Part shown: one piece after another, positions 49,103-63,762 of the stretch
Numbering within the stretch: the stretch's first letter is position 1
Layout: every line of letters begins with the position of its first letter
From: a virus
Direction: 5' to 3' (one strand)
DNA: 64,000 nucleotides
Virus record (IMG/VR): IMGVR_UViG_3300044971_004534
Notes under the pieces: generated by a model
What the model was told of the DNA's origin: nothing
Seen by the model: only the letters and a program-made list of their open reading frames with translations
Databases searched by the model: none
Translations under genes and position numbers: made by a program

Positions 49103-49105
49103 ACT

Positions 49106-49591
49106 ATGCAGTACAAATTATCTAAAAGCGAATGGCTCAAAATAGGCGAACAAGCTGGATGGCTGAGGATCAGCGGGGAACAGGCAGTCCTGACGAAGCA
49201 GGGGAAATCAAATGTTGCTGGTGCGGTCTTTCAGGTGATGCGTAAACCCGAGATAGCAAAGAGGATCATTGAACTTTCTAAAATCTGGAATTCCAATTCA
49301 AGCGAGTTTAGCAAGAAGCTTCAAGATCTGGAGCAAGAGATCGTTGTTGACTATCATAATTTTTTGGACACAGGAGCATCAGAAGATTTGTTCATTGACC
49401 GAATCGAGTTACGGAGTATCATTGAAAAAATCATCTATAAAATGCTTGAAGTTGGCGACTTGGGAGTTCGGGAAGCAGGCGAACAAGCTGGATGGCTGAA
49501 GGAAGCCAAGTGCTGGAAGGGCTACAAAGCCGTTGGCATGAAGAAGAAAAAGGGCAAGACCGTTCCCAATTGCGTCCGCAAGGAGAGCTGA
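49106..49591 (+). CDS. QYKLSK-domain protein (module 1, gene A)
   Basis: MQYKLSKSEWLKIGEQAGWLRI N-terminus; C-terminus GEQAGWLKEAKCWKGYKAVGMKKKKGKTVPNCV; internal 22-nt exact repeat 49145/49478. Confidence 0.65.
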   Translation: MQYKLSKSEWLKIGEQAGWLRISGEQAVLTKQGKSNVAGAVFQVMRKPEIAKRIIELSKIWNSNSSEFSKKLQDLEQEIVVDYHNFLDTGASEDLFIDRIELRSIIEKIIYKMLEVGDLGVREAGEQAGWLKEAKCWKGYKAVGMKKKKGKTVPNCVRKES

Positions 49592-50437
49592 ATGGGTTGG
49601 CTCAAGGCGGCGCAGACAAGTGCATGGGGCCAGAACACGAGCAGGGGTGCAAGGGAAATCTACACCGCATTGCGTGAACGTGCCAATCCCCACAGGAGCA
49701 GCGCTGAGCTGAATAAAAAATGGGGGGAGGAAATAGTGAAGATACCGGGTTACGTGTCCCGTTGGTCCGGTGGCAGCTGGGCATACGTGGACTACGACCC
49801 CCAGAAGCGAAAGAACACCGACAGGATGAATCCACTTGCCCACAAGGGAATGGAGTGGAAGCTGTACTTTACCGTCAATCCAAAGGACGGGGGCGCGGAG
49901 AGCATGGGAAACACCCTTGAGGCGTTGAAAGACCTTCCGAGACAGCTGGAGGCAAACCTTGGTCCTCATGGCGTCGCCCTTCTCTACAAGATCCCTGGAA
50001 CCTGGAGTGGATTTTTGCGGGAGAACGACACAGTCGTGATGTATCACCCGTTCGAGCCTCGCAGCAGGTGGACGGACTTCATCTCTTCCGTTGTTCGTGG
50101 CTGGATGGGCAAATGGGGACTGGAGGAAGGGAAGCGTTCGTACAACGAGGGCTTTGACTGGCACGAGCAGACGGAGTACAGGGACGGAACGCAGGTGGAG
50201 CACAAGGAGATGACGGACAGGCTGGGATGGCTGAAGCCAGAGGGATTCATTGCCATGGGGCTGGAAAGGGGTGGTGGATCATTTGGCACTACATTGGCCC
50301 GCTTCATGGAACTTGTTGGCAAGAACCCTGATGACCCGCGCTGGAAGGGCTTGGTGAAGGGGGGAGAGATCAGTATGAAGGAAGCAGCAGACTGGCTTAT
50401 TGGGCACGGCAAAGAGGTAGCACAGGAACTGATGTGA
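49592..50437 (+). CDS. GW-K N-terminus protein (module 1, gene B)
   Basis: MGWLKAAQ start; AAGGAG SD; noticeably more GC-rich than its neighbours. Confidence 0.65.
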   Translation: MGWLKAAQTSAWGQNTSRGAREIYTALRERANPHRSSAELNKKWGEEIVKIPGYVSRWSGGSWAYVDYDPQKRKNTDRMNPLAHKGMEWKLYFTVNPKDGGAESMGNTLEALKDLPRQLEANLGPHGVALLYKIPGTWSGFLRENDTVVMYHPFEPRSRWTDFISSVVRGWMGKWGLEEGKRSYNEGFDWHEQTEYRDGTQVEHKEMTDRLGWLKPEGFIAMGLERGGGSFGTTLARFMELVGKNPDDPRWKGLVKGGEISMKEAADWLIGHGKEVAQELM

Positions 50438-50460
50438 CGAACACCTGTTTTGTTTTTTGT

Positions 50461-50492
50461 ATCCCCCGAAAAATTATGGAGGGGGATTTTTA
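50461..50492 (+). terminator. rho-independent terminator
   Basis: ATCCCCC ... GGGGGAT stem followed by TTTTTATT. Confidence 0.6.
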
Positions 50493-50662
50493 TTATATTG
50501 TTCTGGTTGAAAAAACATCGACCTGTTGAGATGCCCCTAAAAAAATTTTTGGCGCGTTAATACTGGGTTACTGATGGAGGGGGCGGAAATTTTTATAATC
50601 ATCATAAGACCAAAAGGGAAAGACTATTAATCAAAGCAATATAATAAATAGGGAGACTCAAT

Positions 50663-51181
50663 ATGCAATACAAACTATCTAAAGAACAGTGGTTGGAGAT
50701 CGGGCAAAAGGCTGGTTGGTTCAAAATTGCACAGCAAGAAGAGAAAGGACGTGCATTCTTCGTCACTGCTTCAGAAGAAGAAATAAAAAAATATATAGAC
50801 AGCATAGAAGAGTCGTCTGCGCAGGATCTTGCCGACAACCTTGCGGGCGAAAGAGACATGATGAGGGAGAGTGCAAATGGGGCTCGTAGGGCTGCGATGT
50901 CAGCTGATGCAGGCGGAGACGCTGATGACTACAGATTCCAGCTCAAGTTAGAAAAGCAAAAAATTGAAGTTGCAGACAAGTTTGCAAAAGCACTGGCAAT
51001 GCTTACGGTAAGATTTCCGAATGTAAAAACTCCAGAACCAGCCAAGCTCATGGACATGGCAGATTCAATGGAGACACTTTCTCAAAAAGAACATGAGCAA
51101 TCCCGAAGCCAAAGCACCTTACAGGGAGATGCAGAAAAAAGACTGAGACTACCTGGCCTGGGAGCAAACACCCCAAGATAA
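50663..51181 (+). CDS. QYKLSK-domain protein (module 2, gene A)
   Basis: MQYKLSKEQWLEIGQKAGWFKIAQQ; GGGAG SD. Confidence 0.65.
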   Translation: MQYKLSKEQWLEIGQKAGWFKIAQQEEKGRAFFVTASEEEIKKYIDSIEESSAQDLADNLAGERDMMRESANGARRAAMSADAGGDADDYRFQLKLEKQKIEVADKFAKALAMLTVRFPNVKTPEPAKLMDMADSMETLSQKEHEQSRSQSTLQGDAEKRLRLPGLGANTPR

Positions 51182-51199
51182 AAATTATAAGGAAAACAC

Positions 51200-51514
51200 A
51201 TGAACTGGTACAAAAGCGCAAGAAAAAGATACGGATCATTCCATTATGACTTTGACGGAATAGAGCTTATTAATCCCATTTGCTTTTGCTCTGGAACTGC
51301 AAATGTGGAATTTTCAATAGAAAGAGATCCAGGTGACAGATATGAGCCTCCGACCACAGATGTTGATCTCAATGTGACAGTTGAGTCACTTTACTGCACA
51401 GACGCAGAGGGTGAAGAAATTCCAGTCACGAATGAAATGGTTAGGGAGGTTGAGGCCATACTCAGAGATGAAGAACATTTGCGAGAAAAAGCCTTTGACC
51501 ACGAATTTGATTAA
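51200..51514 (+). CDS. NWYK N-terminus protein (module 2, gene B)
   Basis: MNWYKSARKRYG start; ORF track. Confidence 0.6.
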   Translation: MNWYKSARKRYGSFHYDFDGIELINPICFCSGTANVEFSIERDPGDRYEPPTTDVDLNVTVESLYCTDAEGEEIPVTNEMVREVEAILRDEEHLREKAFDHEFD

Positions 51515-51601
51515 TTTGAAATAATTTTTAAAAATTACAGAACATTTTAAATTCATAATCGTACAAATGATGACATCATTTATCACAGGAGATTATGTCC
51601 A

Positions 51602-53059
51602 ATGAAAATACTACTCGCAATTTTAGTAAGTGCTCTTATCGTAAACGGTTCTGAATTTAAGAAAAATACAACAAACAAGAACGTCGTAACCGCCACGGAA
51701 ACCCAGGTGAATACGGCGTTTGTCGGTTTTAATGACGGCGTTTCTCTGGAGGACAAACAGAGGACTATTGCATCTCTTGGGAACATGATTGAGTCTGCAC
51801 ATTATTATGAAAATATCCCCAATTTGGCACTTGTCGTTGTTTCGAGTAACTTTATAACTAACATAGCAGACGTGTCAAGTGCACTTGAAGGAAATGAGAC
51901 TGTTTCATTCTTTGAAATGGACAGAAGATTTACCGCAACATACAGCGAAGTGATTCCAAACGATGCCGGATTCTCACAATGCTGGGGTCACAGAAATACC
52001 GGAGCTTCTGGTGGACTGGTAAACTTTGATATGAATACAACAAATGCATGGTCTATTACTCAAGGACAGCCAACGGTAAAAATACTTGTCTTTGAGACAG
52101 GAATACAGCAAGATCATCCAGATATAAATCAACTGCCAGGAAGAGACTTCACAACAGGTGCAGTGAACGGAGTAAGCGGCGGTGGACCAAGCAACTCTTG
52201 TGACAATCACGGGACTGCCGTTGCAGGATGCATTACAGGCATTATCAACAATTCAATAGGAACCGTGGGAACTGCACCAAATTGCAAAGTCATTTCCGCA
52301 AAAGTTGGCACAGCAATCACTCCATGCAATGGGTCGTGGCAGGGGCAAACATCATGGACTGTAAATGCTATTAACTGGGCAATCGGCAATGGAGTAAGGG
52401 TAACAAACAACAGCAATGATTACGGCACAGCTTCTACGGCAATGTCAAATGCATATTCTGCCGCAAAAAATGCTGGAATAGTTAATTTTGCAAGTTCTGG
52501 AAATTCTGGAAACACTTCTATTGGTTTCCCAGCAAGTGCTTCTGCGGTGAACGCAGTTGGTGCAAGCAGCAGAAACGGACAGAAAGCTTCTTTTTCGTCA
52601 TACGGCACAAAGCTCGCTTTTGTTGCTGCTGGCCAATCGGTTTACACCACAGACAGGACGGGATCAAATGGATACTCTTCAGGTGACTATTCACTTATTG
52701 ACGGAACTTCTTTTTCTTCCCCATATGCCGCTGGTGTCGCAGCACTTATCATTTCAGTGAACCCATCACTTTCTGCAGCACAGGTTGAGTCCATTATGCA
52801 AACAACATGCAAGGACATGGGAGCAGTAGGATTTGACACTCTTACTGGATGGGGAATGCTGAATGCAGAAGCTGCCGTGCTTCTTGCTCGCCCTGTTCCA
52901 TGCCCAGCAGATTTAAATGGAGACAGGTCTGTCAATGGAAGCGATCTTGGTCAATTGTTGTCTTCATGGGGTTCATCTGGATCTGACCTTACTGGAGATT
53001 CAGTCGTCAATGGCGAAGATTTAGGCGTTCTTCTTTCTGCATGGGGGCCTTGTCCGTAA
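51602..53059 (+). CDS. secreted subtilisin-like (S8) serine protease with C-terminal dockerin-like repeats
   Basis: Signal peptide MKILLAILVSALIVNG; catalytic D (VFETGIQQDHPD), H (NHGTAVAG), S (GTSFSSPYAAG); tail DLNGDRSVNGSDLGQLLSSWG / DLTGDSVVNGEDLGVLLSAWG. Confidence 0.9.
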   Translation: MKILLAILVSALIVNGSEFKKNTTNKNVVTATETQVNTAFVGFNDGVSLEDKQRTIASLGNMIESAHYYENIPNLALVVVSSNFITNIADVSSALEGNETVSFFEMDRRFTATYSEVIPNDAGFSQCWGHRNTGASGGLVNFDMNTTNAWSITQGQPTVKILVFETGIQQDHPDINQLPGRDFTTGAVNGVSGGGPSNSCDNHGTAVAGCITGIINNSIGTVGTAPNCKVISAKVGTAITPCNGSWQGQTSWTVNAINWAIGNGVRVTNNSNDYGTASTAMSNAYSAAKNAGIVNFASSGNSGNTSIGFPASASAVNAVGASSRNGQKASFSSYGTKLAFVAAGQSVYTTDRTGSNGYSSGDYSLIDGTSFSSPYAAGVAALIISVNPSLSAAQVESIMQTTCKDMGAVGFDTLTGWGMLNAEAAVLLARPVPCPADLNGDRSVNGSDLGQLLSSWGSSGSDLTGDSVVNGEDLGVLLSAWGPCP

Positions 53060-53068
53060 GGTTGCTGT

Positions 53069-53587
53069 ATGAAAGAACATCCGTATACTCCATTTGATGA
53101 TTTTTTTGCAGAGTTTAGATGGTATCAGAAAAGAGGGATAGCTCCTGATATATCAAAAAGTCAGCTTAAAAAAATATGGAATGAATCTCCTGTAGTATTG
53201 CTTGAACCAAAGAATTTTGATTCATTCAGAAACTTCTCTCCATATCGTGAAAAGCTGAATGGCACAATGGAGAACAGAATAAGAAAACTGCTTGAGATAT
53301 CTGCAACGGAAGATAGAGATGAAGTGTTTGACACCAAGTGGGAATTGAAAAGAAAAAAGAATCCACAAAAATACATTATCAATTTAGCTCAACTTGTGTG
53401 GAACAAAGATGGATACGATCCAGTAAATGTAGTGGACATAAATGGTAAAAGACAATTTATCACAGGTGGCAGAACTCGTGCAGCAATCGGAAAAGCACTG
53501 GGAGTTCCCGTGCTGACTCGCATTGTTTGCCTGGAACATAAGGGAAAATGGTCTAAGCGAGCTCGTGAGCTTATGAATGGAAAATGA
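53069..53587 (+). CDS. hypothetical protein, possible ParB/Srx-like nuclease fold
   Basis: VVDINGKRQFITGGRTRAAIGKALGVPVL resembles the ParB N-terminal GxRRxxAA..LG box; weak. Confidence 0.45.
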   Translation: MKEHPYTPFDDFFAEFRWYQKRGIAPDISKSQLKKIWNESPVVLLEPKNFDSFRNFSPYREKLNGTMENRIRKLLEISATEDRDEVFDTKWELKRKKNPQKYIINLAQLVWNKDGYDPVNVVDINGKRQFITGGRTRAAIGKALGVPVLTRIVCLEHKGKWSKRARELMNGK

Positions 53588-53640
53588 CGCGTTGCAGGTA
53601 ATCATCTGTTAGCGTTGAATATATTTCAATGGAGAATTAT

Positions 53641-54096
53641 ATGCAATATAAATTATCAAAGTCAGAGTGGGAATCTATAGGCGTCAATGCTGGGTGGATG
53701 AAAATTGCTGGACCTGGCGGAAGATTTCAGGCTTCCATGAGTGCAGCAGAGCAAAAGTTGTGGGCAAGCCTAAATCAGCAACAAAAAAATAATTATGCAA
53801 CATTGGATGCTGCCAATAGAGCAAGGGTTGCAGCACTGCCATTGCAGCAAGCACAACAATACCTGAACAGCATAATGCCACCAGCTGGAGGTAAAGTCCC
53901 AACAGCTTCATTTGATAATGAAATAAAGACGGCTCTTAAATTAAATGACAAAACTGATGAAAAAACACCAGAGCAGTATAAGGAAGAGTTTATAGAAAGA
54001 ATGAAGTCCATCGGGATGACAGATGAAGAAATCGAGCGTGCACTAAAATCTGGATATTTAGAAAGAATCATGAAAGGCAGAAAGAATAAAGAATGA
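53641..54096 (+). CDS. QYKLSK-domain protein (module 3, gene A)
   Basis: MQYKLSKSEWESIGVNAGWMKIAG; ATG 53641 6 nt after GGAG (ORF track lists 53629). Confidence 0.65.
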   Translation: MQYKLSKSEWESIGVNAGWMKIAGPGGRFQASMSAAEQKLWASLNQQQKNNYATLDAANRARVAALPLQQAQQYLNSIMPPAGGKVPTASFDNEIKTALKLNDKTDEKTPEQYKEEFIERMKSIGMTDEEIERALKSGYLERIMKGRKNKE

Positions 54097-54860
54097 ACTG
54101 GTATAAGCTGGCTCAAAATAGGTCTTTTTCTTGGGCCAATGTAGAGGGTATTTTATACACACCAGAGGCCATGAGAGACTTGAAAGATTTTAAGAAGTCT
54201 CAGGAAGGAAGAAGTGCTAAGGAAATTAGCATGCTTATTAAAGACGTTATTGATAGAAGACAAATTAATTTACGGAATGTAGAATCCAGGTCTGCTGCAA
54301 ATCCTTACATTCCAAACGGACCAAAAGAAAAAATAAAGATTCACGTATTTGAGCCAAGAGGTGTTGGACTCGCTGAAGGTCCCGGAAAGGCTTACAGAAT
54401 AGGAGCACAACTATGTTCTTTAGGAGGAGAAACTTCAGAATCATCAGACAAATACATTCGAGAGCAAGAATTTGAAAGAACTGGACGTAAATTTTTAATT
54501 ATCAAGAGAGTATTTGAAAATCATGATGAAGATTATTTGCCATGGATTAGTCTATATAATTCTTCTCACGTAGATGATTGTCCAAAATACACATTTCAAA
54601 TTCAAAGAAAAGAAAACCAAGAAAAAATAGTAGATCTCAATCCTCAAAACCCTTTTGACTGGTTAGTAAATTCTGTAAAGATGATACGCGATAGAAATAT
54701 TGAAGGCATCAGCATTCATAAAAGAATGCTTGAAGGAAAATCAGAAGAAGAAATTTTTAGTATTTTAGAATTTATGACAAAAAATCAGGCTAGATTCCCA
54801 TCTAATATATTAAAAGATATAGGCAGGTGGATCGAGGAATACGTGGACAGAACAGGGTAA
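54093..54860 (+). CDS. NWYK N-terminus protein (module 3, gene B)
   Basis: MNWYKLAQNRSF start; ATGA overlap. Confidence 0.6.
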   Translation: MNWYKLAQNRSFSWANVEGILYTPEAMRDLKDFKKSQEGRSAKEISMLIKDVIDRRQINLRNVESRSAANPYIPNGPKEKIKIHVFEPRGVGLAEGPGKAYRIGAQLCSLGGETSESSDKYIREQEFERTGRKFLIIKRVFENHDEDYLPWISLYNSSHVDDCPKYTFQIQRKENQEKIVDLNPQNPFDWLVNSVKMIRDRNIEGISIHKRMLEGKSEEEIFSILEFMTKNQARFPSNILKDIGRWIEEYVDRTG

Positions 54861-54880
54861 TACATCTTTGGAAAACACAC

Positions 54881-55336: not shown

Positions 55337-55341
55337 TAAAG

Positions 55342-55620
55342 ATGTCTTTTAGAGAAAAAATCGGATTTGAAAAACAAGGCGACCAATGGGTTCGCACCCA
55401 GGCAGCGCTAAACGCTGCTGCTCCTAAAGCTATAAGTAGAATTGAAAAACTTATATATTCTGCTGATACTGCTGCAGGTATTGGAGACATGAACGGAGCT
55501 GCGTTTCATGCGAATTGGGCCAGAATTGTCATACAGAGTGCACTAGACAATGGTTTTATTACTCAAAATCAGCACTCAACATACATGTCTCAAATTAACG
55601 CTATTTCTCCGCCAGAATAA
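55342..55620 (+). CDS. hypothetical protein
   Basis: ORF track; SD GTGAGG. Confidence 0.55.
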   Translation: MSFREKIGFEKQGDQWVRTQAALNAAAPKAISRIEKLIYSADTAAGIGDMNGAAFHANWARIVIQSALDNGFITQNQHSTYMSQINAISPPE

Positions 55621-55639
55621 TAGAGATATTAGATACAAC

Positions 55640-55689: not shown

Positions 55690-56328
55690 TTATTTACGCT
55701 TACGTTGACTAAAGCTGCAAAGACCTGCAATACCAATAAGAGATACTGCTCCTGGTGCAGGAATTGCGTTTACTCCAAAGCCACAGTAGTCAATAAAGTT
55801 TCCCTGAGTAGATCCGCCTGTGGCGCTAACTGCCTGAAATGCGAATCTTGTCAGATTTCCTATACTAACTATAGATCCTGAATGAAATTGCCAAGCAGTT
55901 TCATCTGCAGTAAAGTTGCCCTGATACAGAACAGTGTCATCTCCGTTGCCATACAGCTGATCTGCGCCAAGATCAATTATTGAAAGCTGCATGACATCAA
56001 CTCCGTATCTGCCTCTGTGAGCAAAATGCCAATTAATTGTATTGAAATCTCCTAAGCCATTGACGTGCTGATACAAAGTAGAATCGTAGTTTGCATTGAG
56101 TTCAGCGAATGAACTTCCCTCATATGCAGGCACTCCAAGAAATCCATCTGACCAAATCTCCAAATTGTTGTCTGGTGCTGTGGTTGCCCAGTTCAAAGTT
56201 GGGTCAGAACCAGAAAAGAAACCATAACCCCAGGTCTGAAAATCTTCAAAACCACCGTTTACAAGATCTGCCATACAACTTGTAGAAATAACTAAAGTAG
56301 ACAAAAATGCACAAGCGTATTTAACCAT
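55690..56328 (-). CDS. secreted PEP-CTERM protein with DUF642-like domain
   Basis: Signal peptide, then DLVNGGFE; C-terminus IPAPGAVSLIGIAGLCSFSQRKRK (PEP-CTERM variant: PxPG, helix, basic cluster); SD AAGGAGGG. Confidence 0.75.
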   Translation of the reverse strand: MVKYACAFLSTLVISTSCMADLVNGGFEDFQTWGYGFFSGSDPTLNWATTAPDNNLEIWSDGFLGVPAYEGSSFAELNANYDSTLYQHVNGLGDFNTINWHFAHRGRYGVDVMQLSIIDLGADQLYGNGDDTVLYQGNFTADETAWQFHSGSIVSIGNLTRFAFQAVSATGGSTQGNFIDYCGFGVNAIPAPGAVSLIGIAGLCSFSQRKRK

Positions 56329-56369: not shown

Positions 56370-57164
56370 TTATATTCTTTTACGATTATGAAAAAATTGA
56401 CTAAAAGCAACTACAGTAAAAGCTCCAGGTGATGGAACGGACGGTGGCACATAGTATCCACCAGTGTCTATACCATAGTACTCTCCAAATCCATAGTTAG
56501 TTCCAAGAGCAAGTGTAGTGCTATAGACATCAAATGGCAGCAAACTAGGAGTAAAAAAGGCTGCGTATGGATCTGCAAATCCTGTTTGAGCTGCCAAAGA
56601 GGTAACCGGGGCTAAATTAATATCTGTCGCCAAAGCTGCCTGCACAATTTGCTTTGTCAATTTATTTTGCTCATTAGTAACAACAAGTGGAGCTTCAACT
56701 GGCTTATCTCCACCAATTTTATTTTCTTTGGGAAATCTAGCAAGTTCATCTGAGATCTGATAGCCACGAGTCTGTTCTTTGTTGTCAATTTTGAATGGTT
56801 TCTGCCAGTGCCCTTGATAAGGTTGGCCAAACAAAGCGGAATTTGACTGCTTATTACTATTATTGTCTTTTTGTTCTTGATTTTTTGGAGCGTCTGCTTT
56901 CCCAATATCAGAAGCTGCAGTTATGGCAGAATTCATGCCATTAATCGCTGACATAAGAGACTGTACTCCACGTTCACCAAGCAATGTGATTGCAGAAGTA
57001 CATACGATGGTCATAACGTAAACTTTTTTCTCTAAGCTTTTAACCTTAGATTTTGCTTCTTCACACATTCTGGCACATGAAGAGCATCCCCCAGAAATGC
57101 TCTCAACATGCGAGTGTGAAACTGGCGTAGGCGCAGGCTGCTGAATGTCTTTTTTAATCCCCAT
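56370..57164 (-). CDS. PEP-CTERM-like membrane/secreted protein
   Basis: C-terminus VPSPGAFTVVAFSQFFHNRKRI; internal helix VYVMTIVCTSAITLL. Confidence 0.55.
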   Translation of the reverse strand: MGIKKDIQQPAPTPVSHSHVESISGGCSSCARMCEEAKSKVKSLEKKVYVMTIVCTSAITLLGERGVQSLMSAINGMNSAITAASDIGKADAPKNQEQKDNNSNKQSNSALFGQPYQGHWQKPFKIDNKEQTRGYQISDELARFPKENKIGGDKPVEAPLVVTNEQNKLTKQIVQAALATDINLAPVTSLAAQTGFADPYAAFFTPSLLPFDVYSTTLALGTNYGFGEYYGIDTGGYYVPPSVPSPGAFTVVAFSQFFHNRKRI

Positions 57165-57304: not shown

Positions 57305-60004
57305 ATGTATTTAAAGTATTTTATGAATATAGAAAAAACTGCACAACTTAATTGGTTTCGAGGAATAAGGGATCGCATTCGTGGCAACAAGCCAGATGAA
57401 AGCGGTCAAGAATTGTCATTTAATGAACAAGAACTGCGTGGGCTTGAAGAAATAGAAAGAAGAAAGACTGAAGAAGAAAGAAAAAGAGTTGATAAGCTGG
57501 TCCAAGAATCAAAAGAAAGAGCTGAAAGCTTTGGTAGACCTGACAATATTCCCGGAAAATTTGAATTAAGTAGATCTAGTATTCAAAATATATTGTCTAT
57601 GGACAGAGATACTTTATGGCATAAGCTTTGTGCATCTTTTGAGAATTGTTCTCCTTATGTTTCTGAAACTACGGCACAAAGGGGAAGAATAATAAGATAT
57701 CTTGTAGACACTAGGCAAGGCGATTATCGAGGTGGCTGGGGAAGTGTGCTTAGGAGCATAGATTTTCTACTGCAAGGATTAGAATTAGATATACGTAATG
57801 CAGGCAATAATAGTAAAGCGGCAATATCTCATAATAATATGCAAGAAATTTTTACCAATAGAGATTGGCTCATGGCAAATAAAGATGGAATTCAACGAGC
57901 CTATGCACAAGCATCTCCAGACTCTATTAATAAAGAAGTTTTAAATAAATTTTTAACAAATAAACAATCGTATTATGCTCGACGTGATGCAGCTATAGAA
58001 GTATGGGCATCATTTTTAAAAAATAAATATCAATATTACTATGGAAATACATTAAGTGATCAGTATTTTTATAATATTCATCTGTATGCGGATAGGTTAT
58101 GGGAAGATTTTAAATTATATTTTCGATTGATGTCAGGTAATCTATTCCACAACATAGGCATTCAATTAGGTAAAAAATACTTACCAGAAGATATGCAATC
58201 AATTTCTGATGGTGTTCATGCAATAGATGTAAGTATGTTCGACATAGCAAAGCCAGCTAATTTAATGCAATCACGCAGTAATGCAAGGGGTGAAAATGAT
58301 ATCTTTTATAATTGGACCGTGAATAAATGGAAAGAATTTGTAGAAGATACACATTTAATGCTAAGCGTCTTTGGATTTAATTTAAAAGGTGTGTCAAATA
58401 TTAATAATATAAATGGAGAAAATTTATATTACAATATGATGCAAAAAATAATTATGATAGAAAATATTGTTAATAGAGATCCTTTTATAAGTCATATTTT
58501 TAATAACAGTAGATTAGATTTAGGAGATAGCTATTATATATATGCACAAATTAAAGACAAAATGAGTGCTGATCATAATCCAAATAGAGAAGAATATTTA
58601 GTTTCTATATTAAATCAAATTTATGTTAATCAGCATGGAGGGTACTCAAGAGCAATATCTGAAGCTTCAGATGAAAGTTTGAGATCGGCGGCAGATAGGG
58701 TGCCATTTGCAGTAGAACATATTTTATTGCATTTAGAATTTGGTGAAAATATGTATAATGTTATTAATAATTTTGACCAATATCAATCTGCTCTAAATTC
58801 ATACAGAGAAAAACAGCATTCAGCATTAAAAAAAGTAAGAAACGTTCTAGCCAATCCTGATTTAACACAGATGTCTCCCGAAGAGGCAAGACAGTATTTT
58901 GTAGAAAAACTTAATAGACTAGCGAATAGGGAGTTTGAAGGTAGCAATATCGAAAAGGCAAAGCAAGAGCAAATTCTTGATTCTCCATTTGAGCACACAT
59001 CAGTGATAAGACCGTCTACCTTTCCTGGTCAAGCAGCATTTAATAGCAACTCCTTGCCTGAATTGCAAGGAACTCCAATTTCTTTTAATATAGCAATTTA
59101 TCCAAAAAAGAAAGAAAATGACCCGGAAAACTTTGCACAAGTTCTTGCTCCAGGTGGGCACGCACAAGATGGACTAAACTTTCATCATCAGAATATTCCG
59201 TCATTAGAAAATAAGAAATATTATAGTCATATACTTGGCTGGATAGGTGGATGGGTTGACGTAGTAGGCTCGAACATGTATATAGCAGAAATTCAAAGCG
59301 ACGTTATGCAACATACGTCTTACATGAAAGATCCAGAAAAGTCAAAAACAAAATTGAACGAAGAACTTAAAAAGCAAATGCAAGAATTGCAAAAAGAAAA
59401 AGACAATCTTGCTAAACAATCTACAGAAGGTATAGAAAAATTCTATGATAAAAGAATTGAAGAGTTAGAAAAAAAGAGAGATAGCGCAAATAATGAGGCA
59501 ATGAAGCAGCAAATGGATACTGCAATAAAAAAATTAACAGAACAAAAAAACGCTAAAGAAGATCCGTGGGTTAAACTAAGAAAAAAAATAAAAGACATAG
59601 AAAATGTTATTGTTGAAATTAAAAATCAAATTCAAGAGCTTATTGATTATGAAAGAAACACTAACGATCAATGGAGAAAAAGGCCGCAGTTTGCTGATGT
59701 AAAGTCAAAAATAGAAAATAGATTTTCTGAATATGTCGATGTTTTTTATAATGAAGCAATTTACTATTGTGCTCAACTCAAAATTAAAGGTTTATGGATA
59801 GTGCATTCAGATCTTTTAGCTGCAGTCTGGCGACATTTTGCAACGGCTGATACCGTAGAAATGTATAAGAAAATATACGACAAACGAGCGATGGAGATGG
59901 GAGCAGAAAAGAAGGGCAACTGGTGGCACTTAGATCTTACCAAGAAAATGCCTAAGTATGCAAGCACAAATTGGTATCAAAGGACTAAAAATGGGATGGT
60001 ATAA
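57305..60004 (+). CDS. large hypothetical protein (899 aa), paralog 1
   Basis: ORF track (alt. start ATG 57323, MNIEKTAQLNWFRG); C-terminal ~350 aa colinear with the next gene incl. IAEIQSDVMQ and ENRF motifs; ends STNWYQRTKNGMV. Confidence 0.7.
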   Translation: MYLKYFMNIEKTAQLNWFRGIRDRIRGNKPDESGQELSFNEQELRGLEEIERRKTEEERKRVDKLVQESKERAESFGRPDNIPGKFELSRSSIQNILSMDRDTLWHKLCASFENCSPYVSETTAQRGRIIRYLVDTRQGDYRGGWGSVLRSIDFLLQGLELDIRNAGNNSKAAISHNNMQEIFTNRDWLMANKDGIQRAYAQASPDSINKEVLNKFLTNKQSYYARRDAAIEVWASFLKNKYQYYYGNTLSDQYFYNIHLYADRLWEDFKLYFRLMSGNLFHNIGIQLGKKYLPEDMQSISDGVHAIDVSMFDIAKPANLMQSRSNARGENDIFYNWTVNKWKEFVEDTHLMLSVFGFNLKGVSNINNINGENLYYNMMQKIIMIENIVNRDPFISHIFNNSRLDLGDSYYIYAQIKDKMSADHNPNREEYLVSILNQIYVNQHGGYSRAISEASDESLRSAADRVPFAVEHILLHLEFGENMYNVINNFDQYQSALNSYREKQHSALKKVRNVLANPDLTQMSPEEARQYFVEKLNRLANREFEGSNIEKAKQEQILDSPFEHTSVIRPSTFPGQAAFNSNSLPELQGTPISFNIAIYPKKKENDPENFAQVLAPGGHAQDGLNFHHQNIPSLENKKYYSHILGWIGGWVDVVGSNMYIAEIQSDVMQHTSYMKDPEKSKTKLNEELKKQMQELQKEKDNLAKQSTEGIEKFYDKRIEELEKKRDSANNEAMKQQMDTAIKKLTEQKNAKEDPWVKLRKKIKDIENVIVEIKNQIQELIDYERNTNDQWRKRPQFADVKSKIENRFSEYVDVFYNEAIYYCAQLKIKGLWIVHSDLLAAVWRHFATADTVEMYKKIYDKRAMEMGAEKKGNWWHLDLTKKMPKYASTNWYQRTKNGMV

Positions 60005-63000
60005 GTTTGCACAACTTCATGCAATGAAGTGCTCTCCAGTAAACTTGAAAAAGTTACTGCAATTTGCACACACTCCAGGACAGGCTTATTTGTTCGAGAT
60101 GGGCGAAGAACATTCTGCTATGCAAAAACACATAGAAAGACTTGGCGGAAAAAGATATAAAATTCAATTTTTACTCAACACGTTTGATGCAATGCTTACC
60201 GATCTAGATAACACAAAATTAGATTTTGAAGTAGATCAAGATAGGATTGCAAATCGCATAGATTCCGACTATGTAGAAGAATCATATGGTTATATTTTTG
60301 ATGAAGATGACACTAAGTTTTGGGAAAACATAGATGGCATAAATGATCAAGTTTTAGAATTTATTGAAGAATCTTGGGATGTTTCTGAAGATGACTTTGA
60401 GAGTCGCTTATTTCATTATCCAGTAAGTAGTCGTGAACCAAATAATTCAAAAGAACTCGTTAGTCTCAAAGACATTTCAGAAGAACTGTCTAGTTTTGCG
60501 TATTTTGGAGATATGATTTCTTGCATAGGCAATTTGAAACATGATAAATATGTAGCTCGTGATATCATGAGAGAAATAGCGGATATAGATATTGATTTAA
60601 GGTCAATGGGAGAATCAGCAACCGGCATTCATGTTCATACGTGGGCTAAAAATAAAGGCATTGATCTGACGCTTGCTGTGGTTCAAAAAGCAGCAGGTGG
60701 AGAACAAAATGTTGAGATCGCAAAATACGATCCAGATTCAGCAAAACAAATAGCACAAAAAGCTTACTCTAATGTTGCAAATTCTTGGGTTGACAGTATA
60801 GAAAAATTACCACATTCTAAAACAGATTTAGAAGAAGCAATTGAAGAAGCATTCAGAGATCAGGTAAAAGAATCATGGTGGGAGTCTAACAAACAACGCT
60901 TTATGGAAGATGCAGTTGATAATGAAATTGAAAGTACTGCGGATTCATTTAATTATGATGATAGAAGATGGGCTAAAAACACATTGCCCGCAGAATCAGT
61001 AGACCCAAACGTCAGACATCATGTAAGTAAAACTTTTACGGAAGCATTAAAGGAGCACAGCTGGCTAGATAGAGACGAAGATTCTGGTCATGTACAGGTT
61101 GAAGCTAGTAGCTATTTTGCAAACTTAGGAGTTAAAGATTGGAGTAAAATAGCGGATGATATACAGGAAATGGCGGATGACCACGCAATGACTGGTTACG
61201 AAGATTATGTAAAAGAAATAAGATCATATACATCTATGATTAATTGGATTGTAGCAAGTGATCCAGACTTGTCTGCAATCTTTTCTGATGAAGACGCAGA
61301 CCCGACAACACTTACGCAGACTGCTACGGATTTGGGGCAAATAGTTAAAACTTCATATGAGGTTATATCTCTTATGCCTCAGGACGATGCAAGACGCATG
61401 GAGCAAAGCATAACTGCAGAAAATCCAGAGATTGAAGACTGGATTAAAGCCTTAAGAGAAAGAGAAGAAGTAGAAAGACAGGCGAGAGAAACTCAAGCTG
61501 CCATGCTTGCGGAAGAAGAGGCAAGAAAAGCTATACAAAGATCAAATAGAGAAAGAATTGAAAAAGAAGTTTCTGAAGAGTCTAAAAAAATTAATGATCC
61601 AAATATCGGCTCAAGGTCTTTCACAGAAGAGCAAAAGCAGCAGGCAAAAACTCAAAACATTATTGGTAAACCATTTGAGCACATGTCAACATTGCGGGTT
61701 GATCAAAAATACCCTGGAGTGAGCGCCTTTGTGTTAAAGCCAGTACCTATGGAAAGTGAAGTTCCTTATAAGACTTTCCATATTGCTATATATCCAAAAA
61801 AGGAGCAAAGCGATCCGACAAGACTGCATGATGTCTTTGATAGAAGTGCGGGTTTAAATTTTCATGGATTTAGTTTTCCTGAACATGTGAATGAAAATTA
61901 TTACGATCTTATTGGATGGGTTGGCGGCACTATTGACCTTTATAATAAGATAATGTACGTCACAGAAATACAAAGTGATGTAATGCAAAATACCCCTCGC
62001 ATGAAAGATGTTTCCAAGAGCATTGTTGCTTTGAACGAGGGAAAAAATAGCTTATTAGCTGAAGCTGAAAAAATAAAAACATATATTACCACAAATGATA
62101 TCAATGCATATTATGACAAGAGAATACAAGATTTAAAATTAAAAATTCAATCCATGAGTGACAGTCCTGCTGCAATGCAAATGCAGCAAGCTGTTTTAAA
62201 ATTAGAAGAGTTAAAGAATAAGGGTGTAGACCCTTTTGAAAAAGAAAGACAAAAACTACACGATATTGACAATAAACTTAAAGAGATTAATAGGCAAATA
62301 AATGATATAGAAGAATTTGATAAGAAACCTTCTGCCAAACTAAATAAACCTCATCTTTCAGAATTAAGATCTCGAATAGAAAATAGATTTACTGATTGGG
62401 TAGATACCTTCTATAATGAAATATTTATGTATTGTTCTCGCTTAGGAATAAAACATTTATATATAGCAGCTTCTTCTTATTTGTATCTAACATGGAGACA
62501 GTATGCCAAGGCATCTACACTAGAATTGTATAAAAAGATATATGATACAAAGGCTGAGAAGTACGGAATGCGTAAAGTACATTATAAGGGTGTCACGTAT
62601 TGGCATTTAGATCTATCAGAAAACATGCCAAAGTTTGCGAGCAAAGAAAGGTTACAAATGTCTAAAAATAATTGGTATAGGCAAATTAAAACTGCAATGG
62701 ATTTTAGCAGTATTTACATTGATGATATAAAAAGAAAATTTTCTAATGGAGAGATTACGGAAGAGCAAATGCAAGCGCAGATACGTGAAAGATATATGGA
62801 ACACACACAAGATCCAACTACTCGTGACCCAAAACTGTTTATTATAGAAGCAAAAACTTTCTTTGATACGATTAAGCATATTGAAGGCAGAGAAAGGGGT
62901 GGAGAAGATTCTGAGTTTTCAAAAGCTCAATTTATGAGGGAAGCATTGGGTCAGTTTTTAGAATTTAATGGTAAGAAATATACAGACAGAGACGGCAAGC

Positions 63001-63086
63001 TAGAAGAGCCATTTAAATCAATACTTCAAAGATTGCTTATACAGAAATTTAATTACGACATGGATTTAGATGAAATGGTAGAGTGA
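59991..63086 (+). CDS. large hypothetical protein (1031 aa), paralog 2
   Basis: ATG 59991 (MGWYKFAQL) in frame of ORF-track 59958..63086; VTEIQSDVMQ, ENRF, NNWYRQIK motifs. Confidence 0.7.
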   Translation: MGWYKFAQLHAMKCSPVNLKKLLQFAHTPGQAYLFEMGEEHSAMQKHIERLGGKRYKIQFLLNTFDAMLTDLDNTKLDFEVDQDRIANRIDSDYVEESYGYIFDEDDTKFWENIDGINDQVLEFIEESWDVSEDDFESRLFHYPVSSREPNNSKELVSLKDISEELSSFAYFGDMISCIGNLKHDKYVARDIMREIADIDIDLRSMGESATGIHVHTWAKNKGIDLTLAVVQKAAGGEQNVEIAKYDPDSAKQIAQKAYSNVANSWVDSIEKLPHSKTDLEEAIEEAFRDQVKESWWESNKQRFMEDAVDNEIESTADSFNYDDRRWAKNTLPAESVDPNVRHHVSKTFTEALKEHSWLDRDEDSGHVQVEASSYFANLGVKDWSKIADDIQEMADDHAMTGYEDYVKEIRSYTSMINWIVASDPDLSAIFSDEDADPTTLTQTATDLGQIVKTSYEVISLMPQDDARRMEQSITAENPEIEDWIKALREREEVERQARETQAAMLAEEEARKAIQRSNRERIEKEVSEESKKINDPNIGSRSFTEEQKQQAKTQNIIGKPFEHMSTLRVDQKYPGVSAFVLKPVPMESEVPYKTFHIAIYPKKEQSDPTRLHDVFDRSAGLNFHGFSFPEHVNENYYDLIGWVGGTIDLYNKIMYVTEIQSDVMQNTPRMKDVSKSIVALNEGKNSLLAEAEKIKTYITTNDINAYYDKRIQDLKLKIQSMSDSPAAMQMQQAVLKLEELKNKGVDPFEKERQKLHDIDNKLKEINRQINDIEEFDKKPSAKLNKPHLSELRSRIENRFTDWVDTFYNEIFMYCSRLGIKHLYIAASSYLYLTWRQYAKASTLELYKKIYDTKAEKYGMRKVHYKGVTYWHLDLSENMPKFASKERLQMSKNNWYRQIKTAMDFSSIYIDDIKRKFSNGEITEEQMQAQIRERYMEHTQDPTTRDPKLFIIEAKTFFDTIKHIEGRERGGEDSEFSKAQFMREALGQFLEFNGKKYTDRDGKLEEPFKSILQRLLIQKFNYDMDLDEMVE

Positions 63087-63130
63087 TTTCTACGACAAAT
63101 AAGTAAAAGCTCTATCATAGGAGAACTTAC

Positions 63131-63274
63131 ATGGGAAAAAATGTTAGAAATAATTACAGCGACAATGGCATGACTAGAAGAAACTGGAAGGCAAAAATGA
63201 TGAAGAAAAAGCATGACCGAATAAGAAATCTTGAAGGCTGCAATGCAAGAAAGCAAGCCGAAAACCCTCAGTAA
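63131..63274 (+). CDS. small basic protein (47 aa)
   Basis: Hand-translated MGKNVRNNYSDNGMTRRNWKAKMMKKKHDRIRNLEGCNARKQAENPQ; AGGAG upstream; terminator overlaps the stop. Confidence 0.4.
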   Translation: MGKNVRNNYSDNGMTRRNWKAKMMKKKHDRIRNLEGCNARKQAENPQ

Positions 63275-63286
63275 TGAGGGTTTTTT
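63261..63286 (+). terminator. rho-independent terminator
   Basis: AAAACCCTCA-gtaa-TGAGGGTTTT followed by TT. Confidence 0.8.
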
Positions 63287-63309
63287 AATTAAAGCTTGTA
63301 ATATATTAC

Positions 63310-63762
63310 ATGTTTAAAGTAAATGATATTAAAATATCAAAATATGACTGGATCAATATCGGCATACATGCTGGTTGGATCAAGACATCTCATATGGGGC
63401 ACGCTCCAAATGTCTACGATATGACTGCGCATATGTTGCATTACAGAAGCTTGTACGAAGAACACATCAGTCCTGTTATAAAAAAATTGGCAGTTCATTT
63501 GCAAAAAGGTCTTTTTAATAAAGAAATGGCTTTGGCTTCTTTTGAAAGAATTGCTCATAAAGGAATAGAAATGTATATTAAGGAGCATGGTGAAATAGAC
63601 GTGACTCCAATGATTGTAAGATCTATAGCTGAAAACTTATTAGACAACTACATGGAAGAGATAACAGATGAGCTTTTGACTATAAGTGACGAAAATATTG
63701 TGTCGAAAAATAAGGATGAGAAGAAAAAAGCTCCCAATAAACGCAGAGACCGTAATCCATAG
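63310..63762 (+). CDS. QYKLSK-domain-related protein (divergent)
   Basis: MFKVNDIKISKYDWINIGIHAGWIKTSH N-terminus. Confidence 0.6.
   Translation: MFKVNDIKISKYDWINIGIHAGWIKTSHMGHAPNVYDMTAHMLHYRSLYEEHISPVIKKLAVHLQKGLFNKEMALASFERIAHKGIEMYIKEHGEIDVTPMIVRSIAENLLDNYMEEITDELLTISDENIVSKNKDEKKKAPNKRRDRNP

What the first reader, a model, noticed from the sequence alone, without database searches (positions are those of the whole stretch)
49106..63400. Recurrent short peptide motif [NG]-W-[YLFMI]-K-x-A at protein termini across the AT-rich block
Seen: there are at least 12 occurrences of the motif or close variants, some with R/Q in place of K. They are AGWLRISG and AGWLKEAK (49106 product, N- and C-terminal, encoded by an exact 22-nt repeat at 49145 and 49478), MGWLKAAQ (49592), AGWFKIAQ (50663), MNWYKSAR (51200), AGWMKIAG (53641), MNWYKLAQ (54093), AQLNWFRG (57305 product N-terminus), STNWYQRTK (its C-terminus), MGWYKFAQ (59991), NNWYRQIKTA (near residue 900 of the 59991 product) and AGWIKTSH (63310). 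Five of them are the first residues of the protein. I do not recognise the motif. Inference: it is a short linear motif used as a common handle, for example a targeting or packaging signal, a docking peptide for a shared partner, or a processing site. In the 57305/59991 pair the motif marks the point where one paralog stops and the other continues.
Basis: partly seen in the sequence, partly recalled or inferred. Interest (0 to 1): 0.75.

Follow-up and report, generated by a model that had tools for sequence, protein, structure and literature searches.

The report
Portable N-terminal tag on huge-phage proteins
Many unrelated accessory proteins of this huge bacteriophage and hundreds of uncultivated relatives start with the same short peptide (MNWYKxAQ, or a 24-35 residue longer form), which looks like an address label and cutting site for loading proteins into the virus head, though no experiment has tested this.

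Summary
The strict motif occurs 7 times in the block against 0.014 expected, and nowhere else in six frames of the window. The peptide is conserved while its codons vary.

The motif has two forms:
- A stand-alone 8-residue N-terminal tag, M-[NGS]-W-[YLF]-K-x-A-Q.
- The tail of a 24-35 residue module with consensus MKIKLSKSQWEEIGKKAGWMKTAQ.

Both forms are confined to viral DNA. Neither is in Pfam, NCBIfam, PHROGs, the PDB or the searched literature. They are widespread: 738 protein clusters carry the long form, and 46 IMG/VR sites match the short form against 2 for a scrambled control.

Tagged genes form dense, hypervariable arrays. Their cargo is diverse and includes ADP-ribosyltransferases, GNATs, kinases, and anti-Thoeris and anti-CBASS proteins. 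Genomes about 98% identical to the window differ by in-frame indels that begin exactly after the tag.

In one large phage clade the arrays sit beside the head-assembly genes. There the head maturation protease-scaffold polyprotein begins with a tag-like peptide (MAMYKKAT). It also carries the core motif hydrophobic-hydrophobic-K-x-A-[S/Q] at 12.7 times the shuffled expectation.

Best reading (confidence about 0.45): a capsid-targeting and processing propeptide like the T4 CTS. The window's own phage (at least 406 kb) could not be tied to that head module.

The parts
49106..49177 (+). Long-form N-terminal module of the 49106 protein (MQYKLSKSEWLKIGEQAGWLRISG)
   Evidence: Matches the 738-cluster profile. 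AF2 of the paralogous module predicts a confident helix at residues 7-17 followed by coil through GW..AQ.
49144..49166 (+). First copy of the exact 23-nt direct repeat (encodes GEQAGWL)
49170..49476 (+). In-frame insert between the two repeat copies. It is absent in relative L039 and in P0006, and replaced by a different 217-bp insert in L040.
49477..49499 (+). Second copy of the 23-nt direct repeat
49478..49510 (+). Second, partial motif copy (GEQAGWLKEAK) at the junction with the C-terminal tail
49511..49588 (+). Basic C-terminal CWxGY...VPNCV tail of the 49106 protein, a separate portable module
   Evidence: Hits to six PHROGs of unknown function at varied profile positions. No literature found.
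49592..49615 (+). Short N-terminal tag MGWLKAAQ
50663..50734 (+). Long-form module MQYKLSKEQWLEIGQKAGWFKIAQ
50750..51111 (+). Segment directly after the tag that is absent in the 98%-identical relative L039
51200..51223 (+). Short tag MNWYKSAR. The homologue in L006 carries the same tag.
53641..53712 (+). Long-form module MQYKLSKSEWESIGVNAGWMKIAG. The true start is probably 53641, not 53629.
53710..53931 (+). 74-codon in-frame insert directly after GWMKIA, absent in relatives L039-L043
54093..54116 (+). Short tag MNWYKLAQ. The body of this gene (54163-54734) is replaced by divergent sequence in relatives, while the first 23 codons are kept.
55342..55404 (+).
   Evidence: the homologue in L035 has the same form.
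57323..57367 (+). Degenerate N-terminal copy in the 57305 protein (MNIEKTAQLNWFRGI)
59969..59989 (+). NWYQRTK at the C-terminus of the 57305 protein. It is homologous to the internal copy in its paralogue.
59991..60014 (+). Short tag MGWYKFAQ. This is the probable true start of the '59958' ORF, with AAAGGA 8 nt upstream.
62670..62699 (+). Internal copy NWYRQIKTAM at a module junction in the 59991 protein
63328..63393 (+). Diverged long-form module IKISKYDWINIGIHAGWIKTSH
   Evidence: P0009.

Best explanation
The motif is a portable N-terminal address tag that acts as a peptide, not as DNA or RNA. It has two forms. The minimal form is M-[NSG]-W-[YFL]-K-x-A-[QST] at the very start of a protein. 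The extended form is a 24-35 residue module made of a short extended segment, one helix (SKSEWxxIGKKA), and then G-W-[MIL]-K-x-A-Q.

Huge phages attach this tag to many unrelated accessory proteins encoded in hypervariable gene arrays.

The most likely mechanism is inferred by analogy with the T4 capsid targeting sequence:
- The tag docks the cargo into the assembling prohead core.
- Its conserved end, hydrophobic-K-x-A-[Q/S], is the recognition site of the head maturation protease.
- The protease removes the tag, and the cargo stays in the capsid to be injected with the DNA.

Because the tag is an independent unit, the position just after it tolerates in-frame insertion and cargo replacement. 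That is why it marks the indel and mosaic boundaries between near-identical genomes.

Shown here:
- peptide-level conservation and portability;
- restriction to viruses;
- the array organisation and the indel boundaries;
- in one clade, adjacency to head genes and sharing of the motif with the protease-scaffold polyprotein.

Inferred only: docking, cleavage, packaging and injection.
For: **Not chance**
- 7 strict hits against 0.013 expected.
- The MNWYKxAQ DNA pattern has 46 matches in IMG/VR, against 2 for a scrambled control.
- It has only 12 matches in 596 Gb of cellular genomes. Those at true ORF starts lie on two contigs binned into MAGs, one of which (L047) has a phage head gene and a tag array.

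**Selection acts on the peptide**
- Identical residues use different codons in 7/15, 9/17 and 8/16 positions between the window's long forms. One serine is AGC in one copy and TCA in another.
- Substitutions are conservative: Y/F/L/M/I, K/R, A/S.
- The 30 nt upstream of tagged starts are not conserved.

**The tag is portable**
- 73 tagged ORFs include GNAT, ART-PolyVal, AAA_33 kinase, G6PD, Tad6, Acb1/2H, SLT and zeta toxin domains.
- The window's 53069 protein is untagged but its L006 homologue is tagged.
- The kinase downstream of the window is untagged, while homologues in L004 and L027 are tagged.

**The long module is widespread**
- 738 clusters at E<=1e-3. Of 177 modules, 146 are N-terminal.
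- AF2 gives one confident helix followed by a coil tail, which fits a docking peptide rather than a globular domain.

**The tag marks cassette boundaries**
- Genomes about 98% identical differ by clean in-frame indels that start right after the tag. There are three alleles at one site.

**Link to the phage head**
- In at least five contigs the arrays adjoin the major head protein gene (phrog_2522, E 1.8e-72). That gene lies downstream of a head maturation protease (phrog_18299) and a scaffold-position protein.
- 11 of the 27 tag-bearing IMG/VR contigs reappear among 74 loci found independently with the protease.
- In those loci, 24 of 28 tags or modules lie just downstream of the capsid gene.
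- 46 of 64 protease-scaffold N-termini read M-x(1-2)-x-K-x-A. Twenty are in the tag's own register, for example MAMYKKAT against MNWYKKAT. A second element, hydrophobic-hydrophobic-K-T-A-S-G, matches the start of the extended tag. hhalign gives P 6e-4 for that match.
- The core motif is 12.7 times enriched in 54 polyproteins and 7.8 times in other large head-locus ORFs. The background in array loci is 0.37 per 1000 aa.
- Portal-position proteins carry the motif 30-55 residues from the N-terminus.

**T4 precedent**
- A 10-residue CTS sits on otherwise unrelated internal proteins and ends in the gp21 cleavage site.
- Scaffold proteins are cut many times at that site.
- gp21 has its own site near its N-terminus (PMC9026906; PMC3012670).
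Against: - No head gene lies in the window or within 10 kb on either side. The window's phage could not be shown to encode the protease family.
- In the window the array is flanked by glycosyltransferase-like, kinase and helicase genes, not head genes.
- The W at position 3 and N at position 2 that define the array tags are not found in the head proteins. These have [AS]-[FMIL] there, and S or T more often than Q at the end.
- The generalised motif was defined after seeing the data. hhalign probability is only 28%.
- Some tagged cargo is hard to picture as capsid cargo: G6PD, a 2-hydroxyacid dehydrogenase, and two proteins with a transmembrane helix right after the tag.
- The residue after Q is not conserved.
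- AAC and GCA are over-used in the tag relative to gene bodies, which hints at some nucleic-acid-level constraint or recent copying.
- The region downstream of a capsid gene is a common site for accessory genes, so adjacency alone is weak evidence.
- There is no proteomic, structural or genetic evidence.
Confidence: 0.45

Rival explanations
1. The tag is a docking peptide for some other shared partner inside the infected cell. Candidates are a chaperone, a protease adaptor or degron reader that times removal of early effectors, or a scaffold of a phage replication compartment or membrane site. On this view the head-gene link is coincidental.
For: - Peptide-level conservation and portability.
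- The module is predicted as a helix plus coil, which suits a docking peptide.
- Cargo includes metabolic enzymes and membrane-anchored proteins that would act in the cell.
- The window's array is not next to head genes.
- From memory only: N-W-Y-K-hydrophobic loosely fits the ClpX N-terminal recognition class 'polar-hydrophobic-hydrophobic-basic-hydrophobic'.
Against: - No candidate partner was found.
- The only family recurrently next to the arrays is the major head protein.
- This view does not explain why the core motif is enriched in the protease-scaffold polyprotein and sits at its N-terminus.
Confidence: 0.2
2. The long module is a small functional domain in its own right, for example a basic nucleic-acid-binding or oligomerising unit of small phage proteins. 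On this view it is not an address label, and the 8-residue tag is only its evolutionary remnant.
For: - Most long-form proteins are small (median 129 aa) and have no recognisable cargo domain.
- The module is strongly basic and is often followed by acidic or low-complexity tails.
- Some proteins carry two or three copies.
Against: - AF2 predicts a single helix, not a fold.
- The 8-residue form is kept at the exact N-terminus of enzymes of many families. A remnant would not be maintained in that way.
- Insertions are tolerated immediately after the module.
Confidence: 0.1
3. The conserved sequence serves gene capture or expression rather than a peptide partner. It could be a shared 5' coding segment that provides homology for cassette exchange, as the VENN junction does in CdiA toxins. 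Or it could be an efficient translation-initiation ramp copied from gene to gene.
For: - Indel and replacement boundaries fall exactly at the tag, one of them flanked by a 23-nt repeat.
- AAC and GCA codons are over-used in the tag.
- Codons are more alike within a locus than between loci, 78% against 67%.
- The tag DNA is AU-rich and unstructured.
Against: - Synonymous sites are close to saturated while residues are conserved, and substitutions are conservative.
- Upstream regions share nothing.
- The long form places the motif 18-36 residues into the protein, where initiation effects do not reach.
- Two of the three insertions use only 3-8 nt of microhomology.
Confidence: 0.1
4. The motif is a chance product of AT-rich composition.
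For: None beyond the low G+C content of the block.
Against: - Shuffles give 0.013 expected against 7 observed.
- The scrambled control scan gives 2 matches against 46.
- 738 clusters match the long profile.
Confidence: 0.01

Closest known systems
Capsid targeting sequence (CTS) of bacteriophage T4 internal proteins IPI/IPII/IPIII and Alt
   Same: - A tag of about 8-10 residues at the extreme N-terminus of otherwise unrelated, fast-evolving proteins.
- Many of those proteins are counter-defence or host-modifying enzymes, including an ADP-ribosyltransferase.
- In T4 the tag ends in the head protease's cleavage motif. That motif also recurs many times in scaffold proteins and near the protease's own N-terminus (PMC9026906; PMC3012670).
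- Here the same pattern is seen by sequence statistics in one clade.
   Different: - There is no sequence similarity. T4 sites are L/I-X-E, whereas here the conserved end is K-x-A-Q/S with no glutamate.
- Tagged genes appear more numerous per genome than T4's few internal proteins: up to about 10 within a 14-kb stretch. They form long arrays.
- An extended 24-35 residue form exists.
- Cleavage and packaging are untested, and the window's array is not near head genes.
Polyvalent proteins of phages and conjugative elements (Iyer, Burroughs, Anand, de Souza, Aravind 2017; PMC5512222)
   Same: - Overlapping effector repertoire: ART-PolyVal, 2H phosphoesterase, lysozyme/SLT, zeta toxin, GNAT and methylase domains (paper).
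- Both are predicted to be delivered with the DNA.
- Occasional fusions give multi-module proteins with the tag at each junction.
   Different: - Most tagged proteins here are single-domain, separate genes rather than one polypeptide with 2-15 domains.
- No MuF or portal fusion and no MPTase domain was seen.
Junction motifs of polymorphic toxins (e.g. VENN in CdiA-CT)
   Same: A short conserved peptide marks the boundary where variable cargo is swapped between close relatives.
   Different: - Here the conserved part is only the tag itself at the N-terminus, not a large delivery domain.
- No immunity genes were identified.
- The comparison rests on my own knowledge of CdiA.
Encapsulin cargo-loading peptides
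   Same: A short terminal peptide that docks diverse cargo to the inside of an HK97-fold shell. The shell gene here is small (287-290 aa) and next to the cargo genes.
   Different: - The adjacent shell gene is a phage major head protein (phrog_2522) lying in a portal-protease-scaffold module, not an encapsulin operon.
- There is no sequence similarity to known targeting peptides, judged from my own knowledge.

Membership tests
T4-type capsid targeting sequence / internal protein system | A short (about 10 aa) conserved peptide at the extreme N-terminus of otherwise unrelated proteins | tested here: met
   - 46 IMG/VR matches, nearly all at true ORF starts with unrelated downstream sequence.
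- In 73 aligned tagged ORFs only M1 and W3 are invariant, and Y4 and K5 are conserved in over 90%.
T4-type capsid targeting sequence / internal protein system | The tag ends in the T4 gp21 cleavage motif L/I-X-E | tested here: not met
   The tags end in K-x-A-Q/S/T and contain no glutamate. The gp21 motif is taken from PMC9026906.
T4-type capsid targeting sequence / internal protein system | The same short motif recurs in scaffold/core proteins and near the protease N-terminus, i.e. it is the maturation protease's site | tested here: inconclusive
   - The core motif is 12.7 times enriched in 54 protease-scaffold polyproteins.
- 46 of 64 polyprotein N-termini are tag-like.
- These are sequence statistics only. 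The motif was defined after the fact, and the window's own phage was not tested.
T4-type capsid targeting sequence / internal protein system | Tagged proteins are incorporated into the prohead, processed, and injected | not testable with these tools
   - No cultivated relative was found. tblastn of the long-module consensus found no match in GenBank phages.
- No proteomics is available.
T4-type capsid targeting sequence / internal protein system | Cargo is hypervariable between close relatives while the tag is kept | tested here: met
   Genomes 98% identical differ by indels or replacements that begin right after the tag. The syntenic array in L002 has different cargo.
Polyvalent proteins (PMC5512222) | 2-15 effector domains in one polypeptide | tested here: not met
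   Median tagged ORF length is 164 aa, and most have one or no recognised domain.
Polyvalent proteins (PMC5512222) | Characteristic effector domain repertoire | tested here: met
   ART-PolyVal, 2_5_RNA_ligase2/Acb1, SLT, zeta toxin, GNAT and methyltransferase domains occur among the tagged ORFs.
Sec / Tat signal peptides | A hydrophobic h-region of 10-20 residues, plus a twin arginine for Tat, after a basic N-terminus | tested here: not met
   The tag is 8 polar or aromatic residues, followed by polar or acidic linkers or directly by enzyme domains. Only 2 of about 73 have a transmembrane helix after it.
Encapsulin cargo-loading system | An encapsulin shell gene with adjacent cargo, without a phage portal, protease or scaffold | tested here: not met
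   The adjacent HK97-fold gene matches 'major head protein' at full length (E 1.8e-72). It lies behind portal-like, protease and scaffold-position genes.
Any curated protein family (Pfam, NCBIfam, PHROGs, PDB) | A significant profile match covering the tag or module | tested here: not met
   No hit covers the tag in Pfam, NCBIfam, PHROGs or PDB sequences at E<=10.

The most novel reading that the evidence does not exclude
Huge phages have a general protein-sorting code. An 8-35 residue N-terminal tag loads many interchangeable effectors into the capsid, and the head protease trims the tag off. The effectors include ADP-ribosyltransferases, acetyltransferases, kinases, anti-CBASS and anti-Thoeris enzymes, and even metabolic enzymes. 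The virion would then deliver a whole 'effector secretome' together with the DNA. New cargo would be acquired by in-frame swapping at the tag boundary.
Probability: 0.35. Interest if true: 0.9.

Novelty: new variant of a known kind. Interest (0 to 1): 0.78.

Why it matters
If the tag is a capsid-loading and processing signal, three things follow.

- It would show how uncultivated huge phages equip their particles with counter-defence and host-takeover enzymes.
- It would give a simple sequence rule for picking out injected effectors from metagenomes. At least 738 long-form clusters, most of unknown function, would be candidates.
- It would offer a very short handle for loading foreign proteins into large phage capsids, as the T4 CTS does for T4.

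Even if the partner turns out to be something else, this is a widespread, virus-specific N-terminal tag. It is absent from Pfam, NCBIfam, PHROGs, the PDB and the searched literature.

It also has a practical use in annotation. The tag marks true start codons and module boundaries in hypervariable phage islands.

Tried and rejected
- **Literature.** Searches for MNWYK, NWYKKAQ, IGKKAGW, KTASGK, CWKGY and related strings found nothing relevant. A keyword search for N-terminal signals in jumbo phages also found nothing.
- **Family libraries.** Pfam and PHROGs on the window's motif proteins gave no hit covering the tag; only the CWxGY tail matched PHROGs. NCBIfam gave nothing. PDB sequence search with the module profile gave nothing at E<=10.
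- **GenBank phages.** No match to the 54093 protein, the window DNA (tRNA only) or the long-module consensus.
- **Word-indexed protein search.**
  - The long-form profile found only 8 close relatives. The exhaustive search was needed to reach 738 clusters.
  - The conserved domain of the 59991 protein found 2 uninformative hits.
  - A search with the short-tag profile was not run, because E<=10 is the ceiling and an 8-residue motif cannot reach it.
- **Promoter and terminator scan** of the block showed no enrichment.
- **Encapsulin reading** of the 287-aa shell gene was rejected after the PHROG and neighbourhood results.
- **Linking the window's phage to the protease clade** failed:
  - no head genes in the window or within 10 kb on either side;
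  - the window's phage is not in IMG/VR;
  - a contig of suggestive length (L136) proved unrelated.
- **Other ideas noted and not adopted.**
  - The DNA of W-Y-K (TGGTATAAA) resembles an extended -10 element. The long form and the variants do not share it.
  - Similarity to the AbrB looped-hinge, to the LIR motif and to the GW 'Ago-hook' was considered from memory and not pursued.

Full report
**Setting**

The window is part of a huge, uncultivated phage.
- It carries seven tRNA genes and a tmRNA. It also encodes UvdE, a DUF2201 metallopeptidase, a DnaB-like ATPase and DUF932.
- It has no close DNA relative among GenBank phages.
- The same genome occurs in many metagenomes on contigs of up to 406 kb.
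- G+C is 47-60% up to about 48 kb and 32-44% from 50 kb onward. The finding lies in this AT-rich part.

**Checking the observation**

All twelve listed occurrences are present.
- The strict pattern [NG]W[YLFMI]K.A occurs seven times in the six-frame translation of the window. All seven are on the + strand between 49490 and 59994.
- Residue shuffles of the 13 + strand proteins of the block expect 0.013 strict hits against 7 observed, and 0.44 loose hits against 13 observed.
- The repeat in the 49106 gene is 23 nt, exact, with a spacing of 333 nt.
- The 57305 and 59991 products are paralogues over about 360 residues. The first stops just after its NWYQRTK and the second continues about 140 residues past NNWYRQIKTA.

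The motif is not a by-product of conserved DNA. The three long forms in the window share 62-71% of residues. Yet 7/15, 9/17 and 8/16 of the identical residues use different codons, and one serine is AGC in one copy and TCA in another.

**Anatomy of the motif**

The motif comes in two forms.
- **Short form.** Four genes (49592, 51200, 54093, 59991) begin with M-[NG]-W-[YL]-K-x-A-[QR].
- **Long form.** Four genes (49106, 50663, 53641, 63310) begin with a longer module, MQYKLSKSEWxxIGxxAGW[LFMI]K[IT][AS].
- The 55342 and 57305 products have degenerate copies.

In total, ten of the thirteen + strand genes of the block carry some version. The tags suggest corrected start codons at 53641 and 59991.

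**Distribution elsewhere**

*Short form*
- A DNA pattern for MNWYKxAQ has 46 matches on 27 IMG/VR contigs. Many contigs have several matches, and several are 170-548 kb long. A scrambled pattern has 2 matches.
- Nearly every match is a true ORF start followed by unrelated sequence.
- In 596 Gb of cellular genomes there are only 12 matches. The genuine ones lie on two contigs binned into MAGs. One of them, L047, carries a phage head gene and a five-gene tag array.

*Long form*
- An exhaustive HMMER search against 1.84 billion representatives found 738 clusters at E<=1e-3.
- The consensus is MKIKLSKSQWEEIGKKAGWMKTAQ, often preceded by MKIIKTASGKKT.
- Of 177 modules, 146 are N-terminal. Many internal copies keep a methionine in front, as expected from fused neighbouring genes.

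*Absence from curated resources*
- Nothing covers the tag in Pfam, NCBIfam, PHROGs or PDB sequences. tblastn of the long-module consensus found nothing in GenBank phages.
- No paper in the searchable library contains the strings.

*Structure*
- AlphaFold2 with a 50-sequence alignment predicts residues 1-20 with pLDDT 84-88.
- It gives one helix at residues 7-17 and coil through GW..AQ. This looks like a docking peptide rather than a domain.

**What carries the tag**

Tagged genes come in dense arrays. There are seven in 3 kb in L004 and about ten in L030, and roughly 70% of array genes are tagged. Variants such as MSWYK, MTWYK and MNWFK also occur.

The cargo is extremely diverse.
- After masking the first 30 residues, few cargo families are shared between contigs.
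- Pfam recognises four GNATs and two each of ART-PolyVal, cREC_REC, AAA_33 kinase, DUF5661 and methyltransferase. Single cases are G6PD, 2-hydroxyacid dehydrogenase, Tad6, Acb1/2H, PolyA_pol, SLT and zeta toxin.
- Most other tagged proteins are unknown.

The tag is optional for a given family. The window's 53069 protein lacks it, but its L006 homologue has it. The kinase just beyond the window starts MANSKTLYIMRG, while homologues in L004 and L027 start MNWYKKAQNKKTLYIMRG.

**The tag as a boundary**

Contigs about 98% identical to the window differ from it by clean in-frame indels that begin immediately after the tag.
- The 49106 gene has three alleles. One has no insert: a 50-residue protein made of the tag plus a basic CWxGY tail. 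One has a 72-residue insert. The window's allele has a 111-residue insert flanked by the 23-nt repeat.
- The 53641 gene has a 74-residue insert after GWMKIA that the relatives lack.
- 362 bp after the 50663 tag are missing in L039.
- The body of the 54093 gene is replaced by divergent sequence, while its first 23 codons are kept.
- A more distant relative (L002) has the array at the same genomic position, but with different cargo.

The junction after the tag therefore behaves like a linker between independent units.

**Link to head assembly**

This is the most informative lead. The only family shared by five tag-bearing contigs is an untagged protein of about 290 residues next to the arrays.
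- It is a major head protein (phrog_2522, E 1.8e-72).
- Upstream of it lie a protein with a head maturation protease domain (phrog_18299, E 1.9e-19), an acidic protein in the scaffold position, and a small protein in the usual position of a decoration protein (no family match).
- In L010/L021 and L047 the tagged genes follow in the same direction. In L047 a homing endonuclease gene lies between the head protein gene and the first tagged gene.

Starting independently from the protease gave further support.
- 74 IMG/VR loci were recovered. 11 of the 27 tag-bearing contigs are among them.
- In these loci, 24 of 28 tags or modules lie 7-10.7 kb downstream of the protease start. That is just past the capsid gene and at the edge of the fetched flank.

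The protease is usually fused to the scaffold in a polyprotein of 1600-2400 residues.
- 46 of 64 distinct N-termini read M-x(1-2)-x-K-x-A. Twenty are in the register of the tag, for example MAMYKKAT, MSLYKKAK and MAIYKTAT against MNWYKKAT.
- A second element 30-40 residues in, hydrophobic-hydrophobic-K-T-A-S-G, matches the start of the extended tag, MKIIKTASGK. hhalign aligns 9 columns with P 6e-4 and probability 28%.

The core motif, hydrophobic-hydrophobic-[KR]-x-A-[QS], is enriched across head-locus proteins.
- It occurs 123 times in 54 polyproteins, against 9.7 in shuffles.
- It is 7.8 times enriched in other large ORFs of the same head loci.
- Its background in the tag-array loci is 0.37 per 1000 residues.
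- Portal-position proteins carry it 30-55 residues from the N-terminus, for example PLTKAAQ.
- The capsid protein N-terminus has LIAQA and ALAQA.

**Interpretation**

This layout parallels T4 (PMC9026906; PMC3012670).
- In T4 a 10-residue capsid targeting sequence heads otherwise unrelated internal proteins and Alt.
- It ends in the gp21 cleavage motif L/I-X-E.
- The same motif cuts the scaffold proteins many times.
- gp21 has a site near its own N-terminus that may target it to the prohead.
- The internal proteins are diverse counter-defence factors.

I therefore propose that the tag docks cargo into the prohead core, and that K-x-A-[Q/S] is the maturation protease's site. The cargo list overlaps with the domains of 'polyvalent proteins' that are predicted to be packaged and injected (PMC5512222).

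**Cautions**

- Cleavage, docking and packaging are inferred, not shown.
- The generalised motif was defined after seeing the data.
- Head proteins lack the N-W signature of the array tags.
- The window and 10 kb on either side contain no head genes. I could not show that this phage has the protease family.
- Tagged G6PD, a tagged dehydrogenase and two membrane-anchored proteins fit capsid loading poorly.
- AAC and GCA codon over-use in the tag is unexplained.
- Accessory genes often accumulate downstream of capsid genes for unrelated reasons.

**Rivals**

The rivals are:
- a docking tag for a different partner;
- an autonomous function of the long module;
- a DNA- or RNA-level role in cassette capture or translation;
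- chance.

Chance is excluded. The nucleic-acid explanations are weakened by the codon evidence. The remaining two cannot be excluded.

**Verdict**

The tag is real, virus-specific, widespread and, as far as I could find, undescribed. Its function is best explained as a new variant of a capsid-targeting and processing propeptide, with moderate confidence.

Noticed in passing
window 49511-49588: The 49106 protein ends in a basic tail, CWKGYKAVGMKKKKGKTVPNCVRKES. It matches six PHROG families of unknown function at very different profile positions, so it is a second portable module. In relatives the whole protein is just tag plus this tail (50 aa). No literature was found on CWxGY strings.
   Followed up: partly
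window 11527-30855: Seven tRNA genes (Glu, Gly, Arg, Met, Leu x2, Lys) and a tmRNA with tag peptide ANESLMAVAA are encoded by the phage.
   Followed up: no
window 51602-53059 (+), 55690-56328 (-), 56370-57164 (-): Inside the tag array sit three genes for untagged proteins that appear to be exported: an S8 subtilase with a signal peptide and dockerin-like C-terminal repeats, and two minus-strand proteins ending in PEP-CTERM-like anchors. They suggest a Gram-negative host with an exosortase.
   Followed up: no
window 48000-50500: G+C drops from about 57% to about 35-44% at the start of the array and stays low for at least 10 kb beyond the window end (seen in L055).
   Followed up: partly
L004 3306-4292 (-), L047 881-2713 (+), L136 3227-4036 (+): LAGLIDADG homing endonuclease genes are inserted in or next to the head module. 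In L004 and L047 they lie exactly between the major head protein gene and the tag array.
   Followed up: no
L047 (CAZYRX010000043.1, 'Halanaerobium' MAG) and L049 ('Flavobacteriales' MAG): These contigs, binned into bacterial MAGs, carry tagged genes. L047 carries a phage major head protein gene followed by five tagged genes, so it is phage DNA rather than host genome. L049 is a 3.5-kb contig with one tagged gene homologous to one on an IMG/VR viral contig (L029), so it is probably phage too.
   Followed up: partly
L009 72-1337, L012 150-1886, L026 3-1520, L036 7349-9136: PcfJ-like domain proteins in three huge-phage contigs lie at the edge of tag arrays. Two of them continue through an internal NWYK motif into a further module, apparently as fusions with a tagged neighbour.
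   Followed up: partly
L059-L132 (protease-anchored loci): This phage clade encodes a 1600-2400 residue head protease-scaffold polyprotein and a capsid protein of only about 290 residues. Contig sizes range from about 4 kb to 548 kb. Capsid proteins are 65-90% identical between contigs whose arrays share no cargo.
   Followed up: partly
short tags in L001-L036: Codon 2 of the tag is AAC in 23 of 39 cases, although AAT makes up 81% of Asn codons in the same genes. GCA is likewise over-used for Ala7. The W-Y-K codons (TGGTATAAA) resemble an extended -10 promoter element. No explanation was found.
   Followed up: partly
window 20166-21416: A DUF2201 metallopeptidase plus VWA-like protein is encoded in the GC-rich part of the window. 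I did not test whether it relates to tag processing.
   Followed up: no
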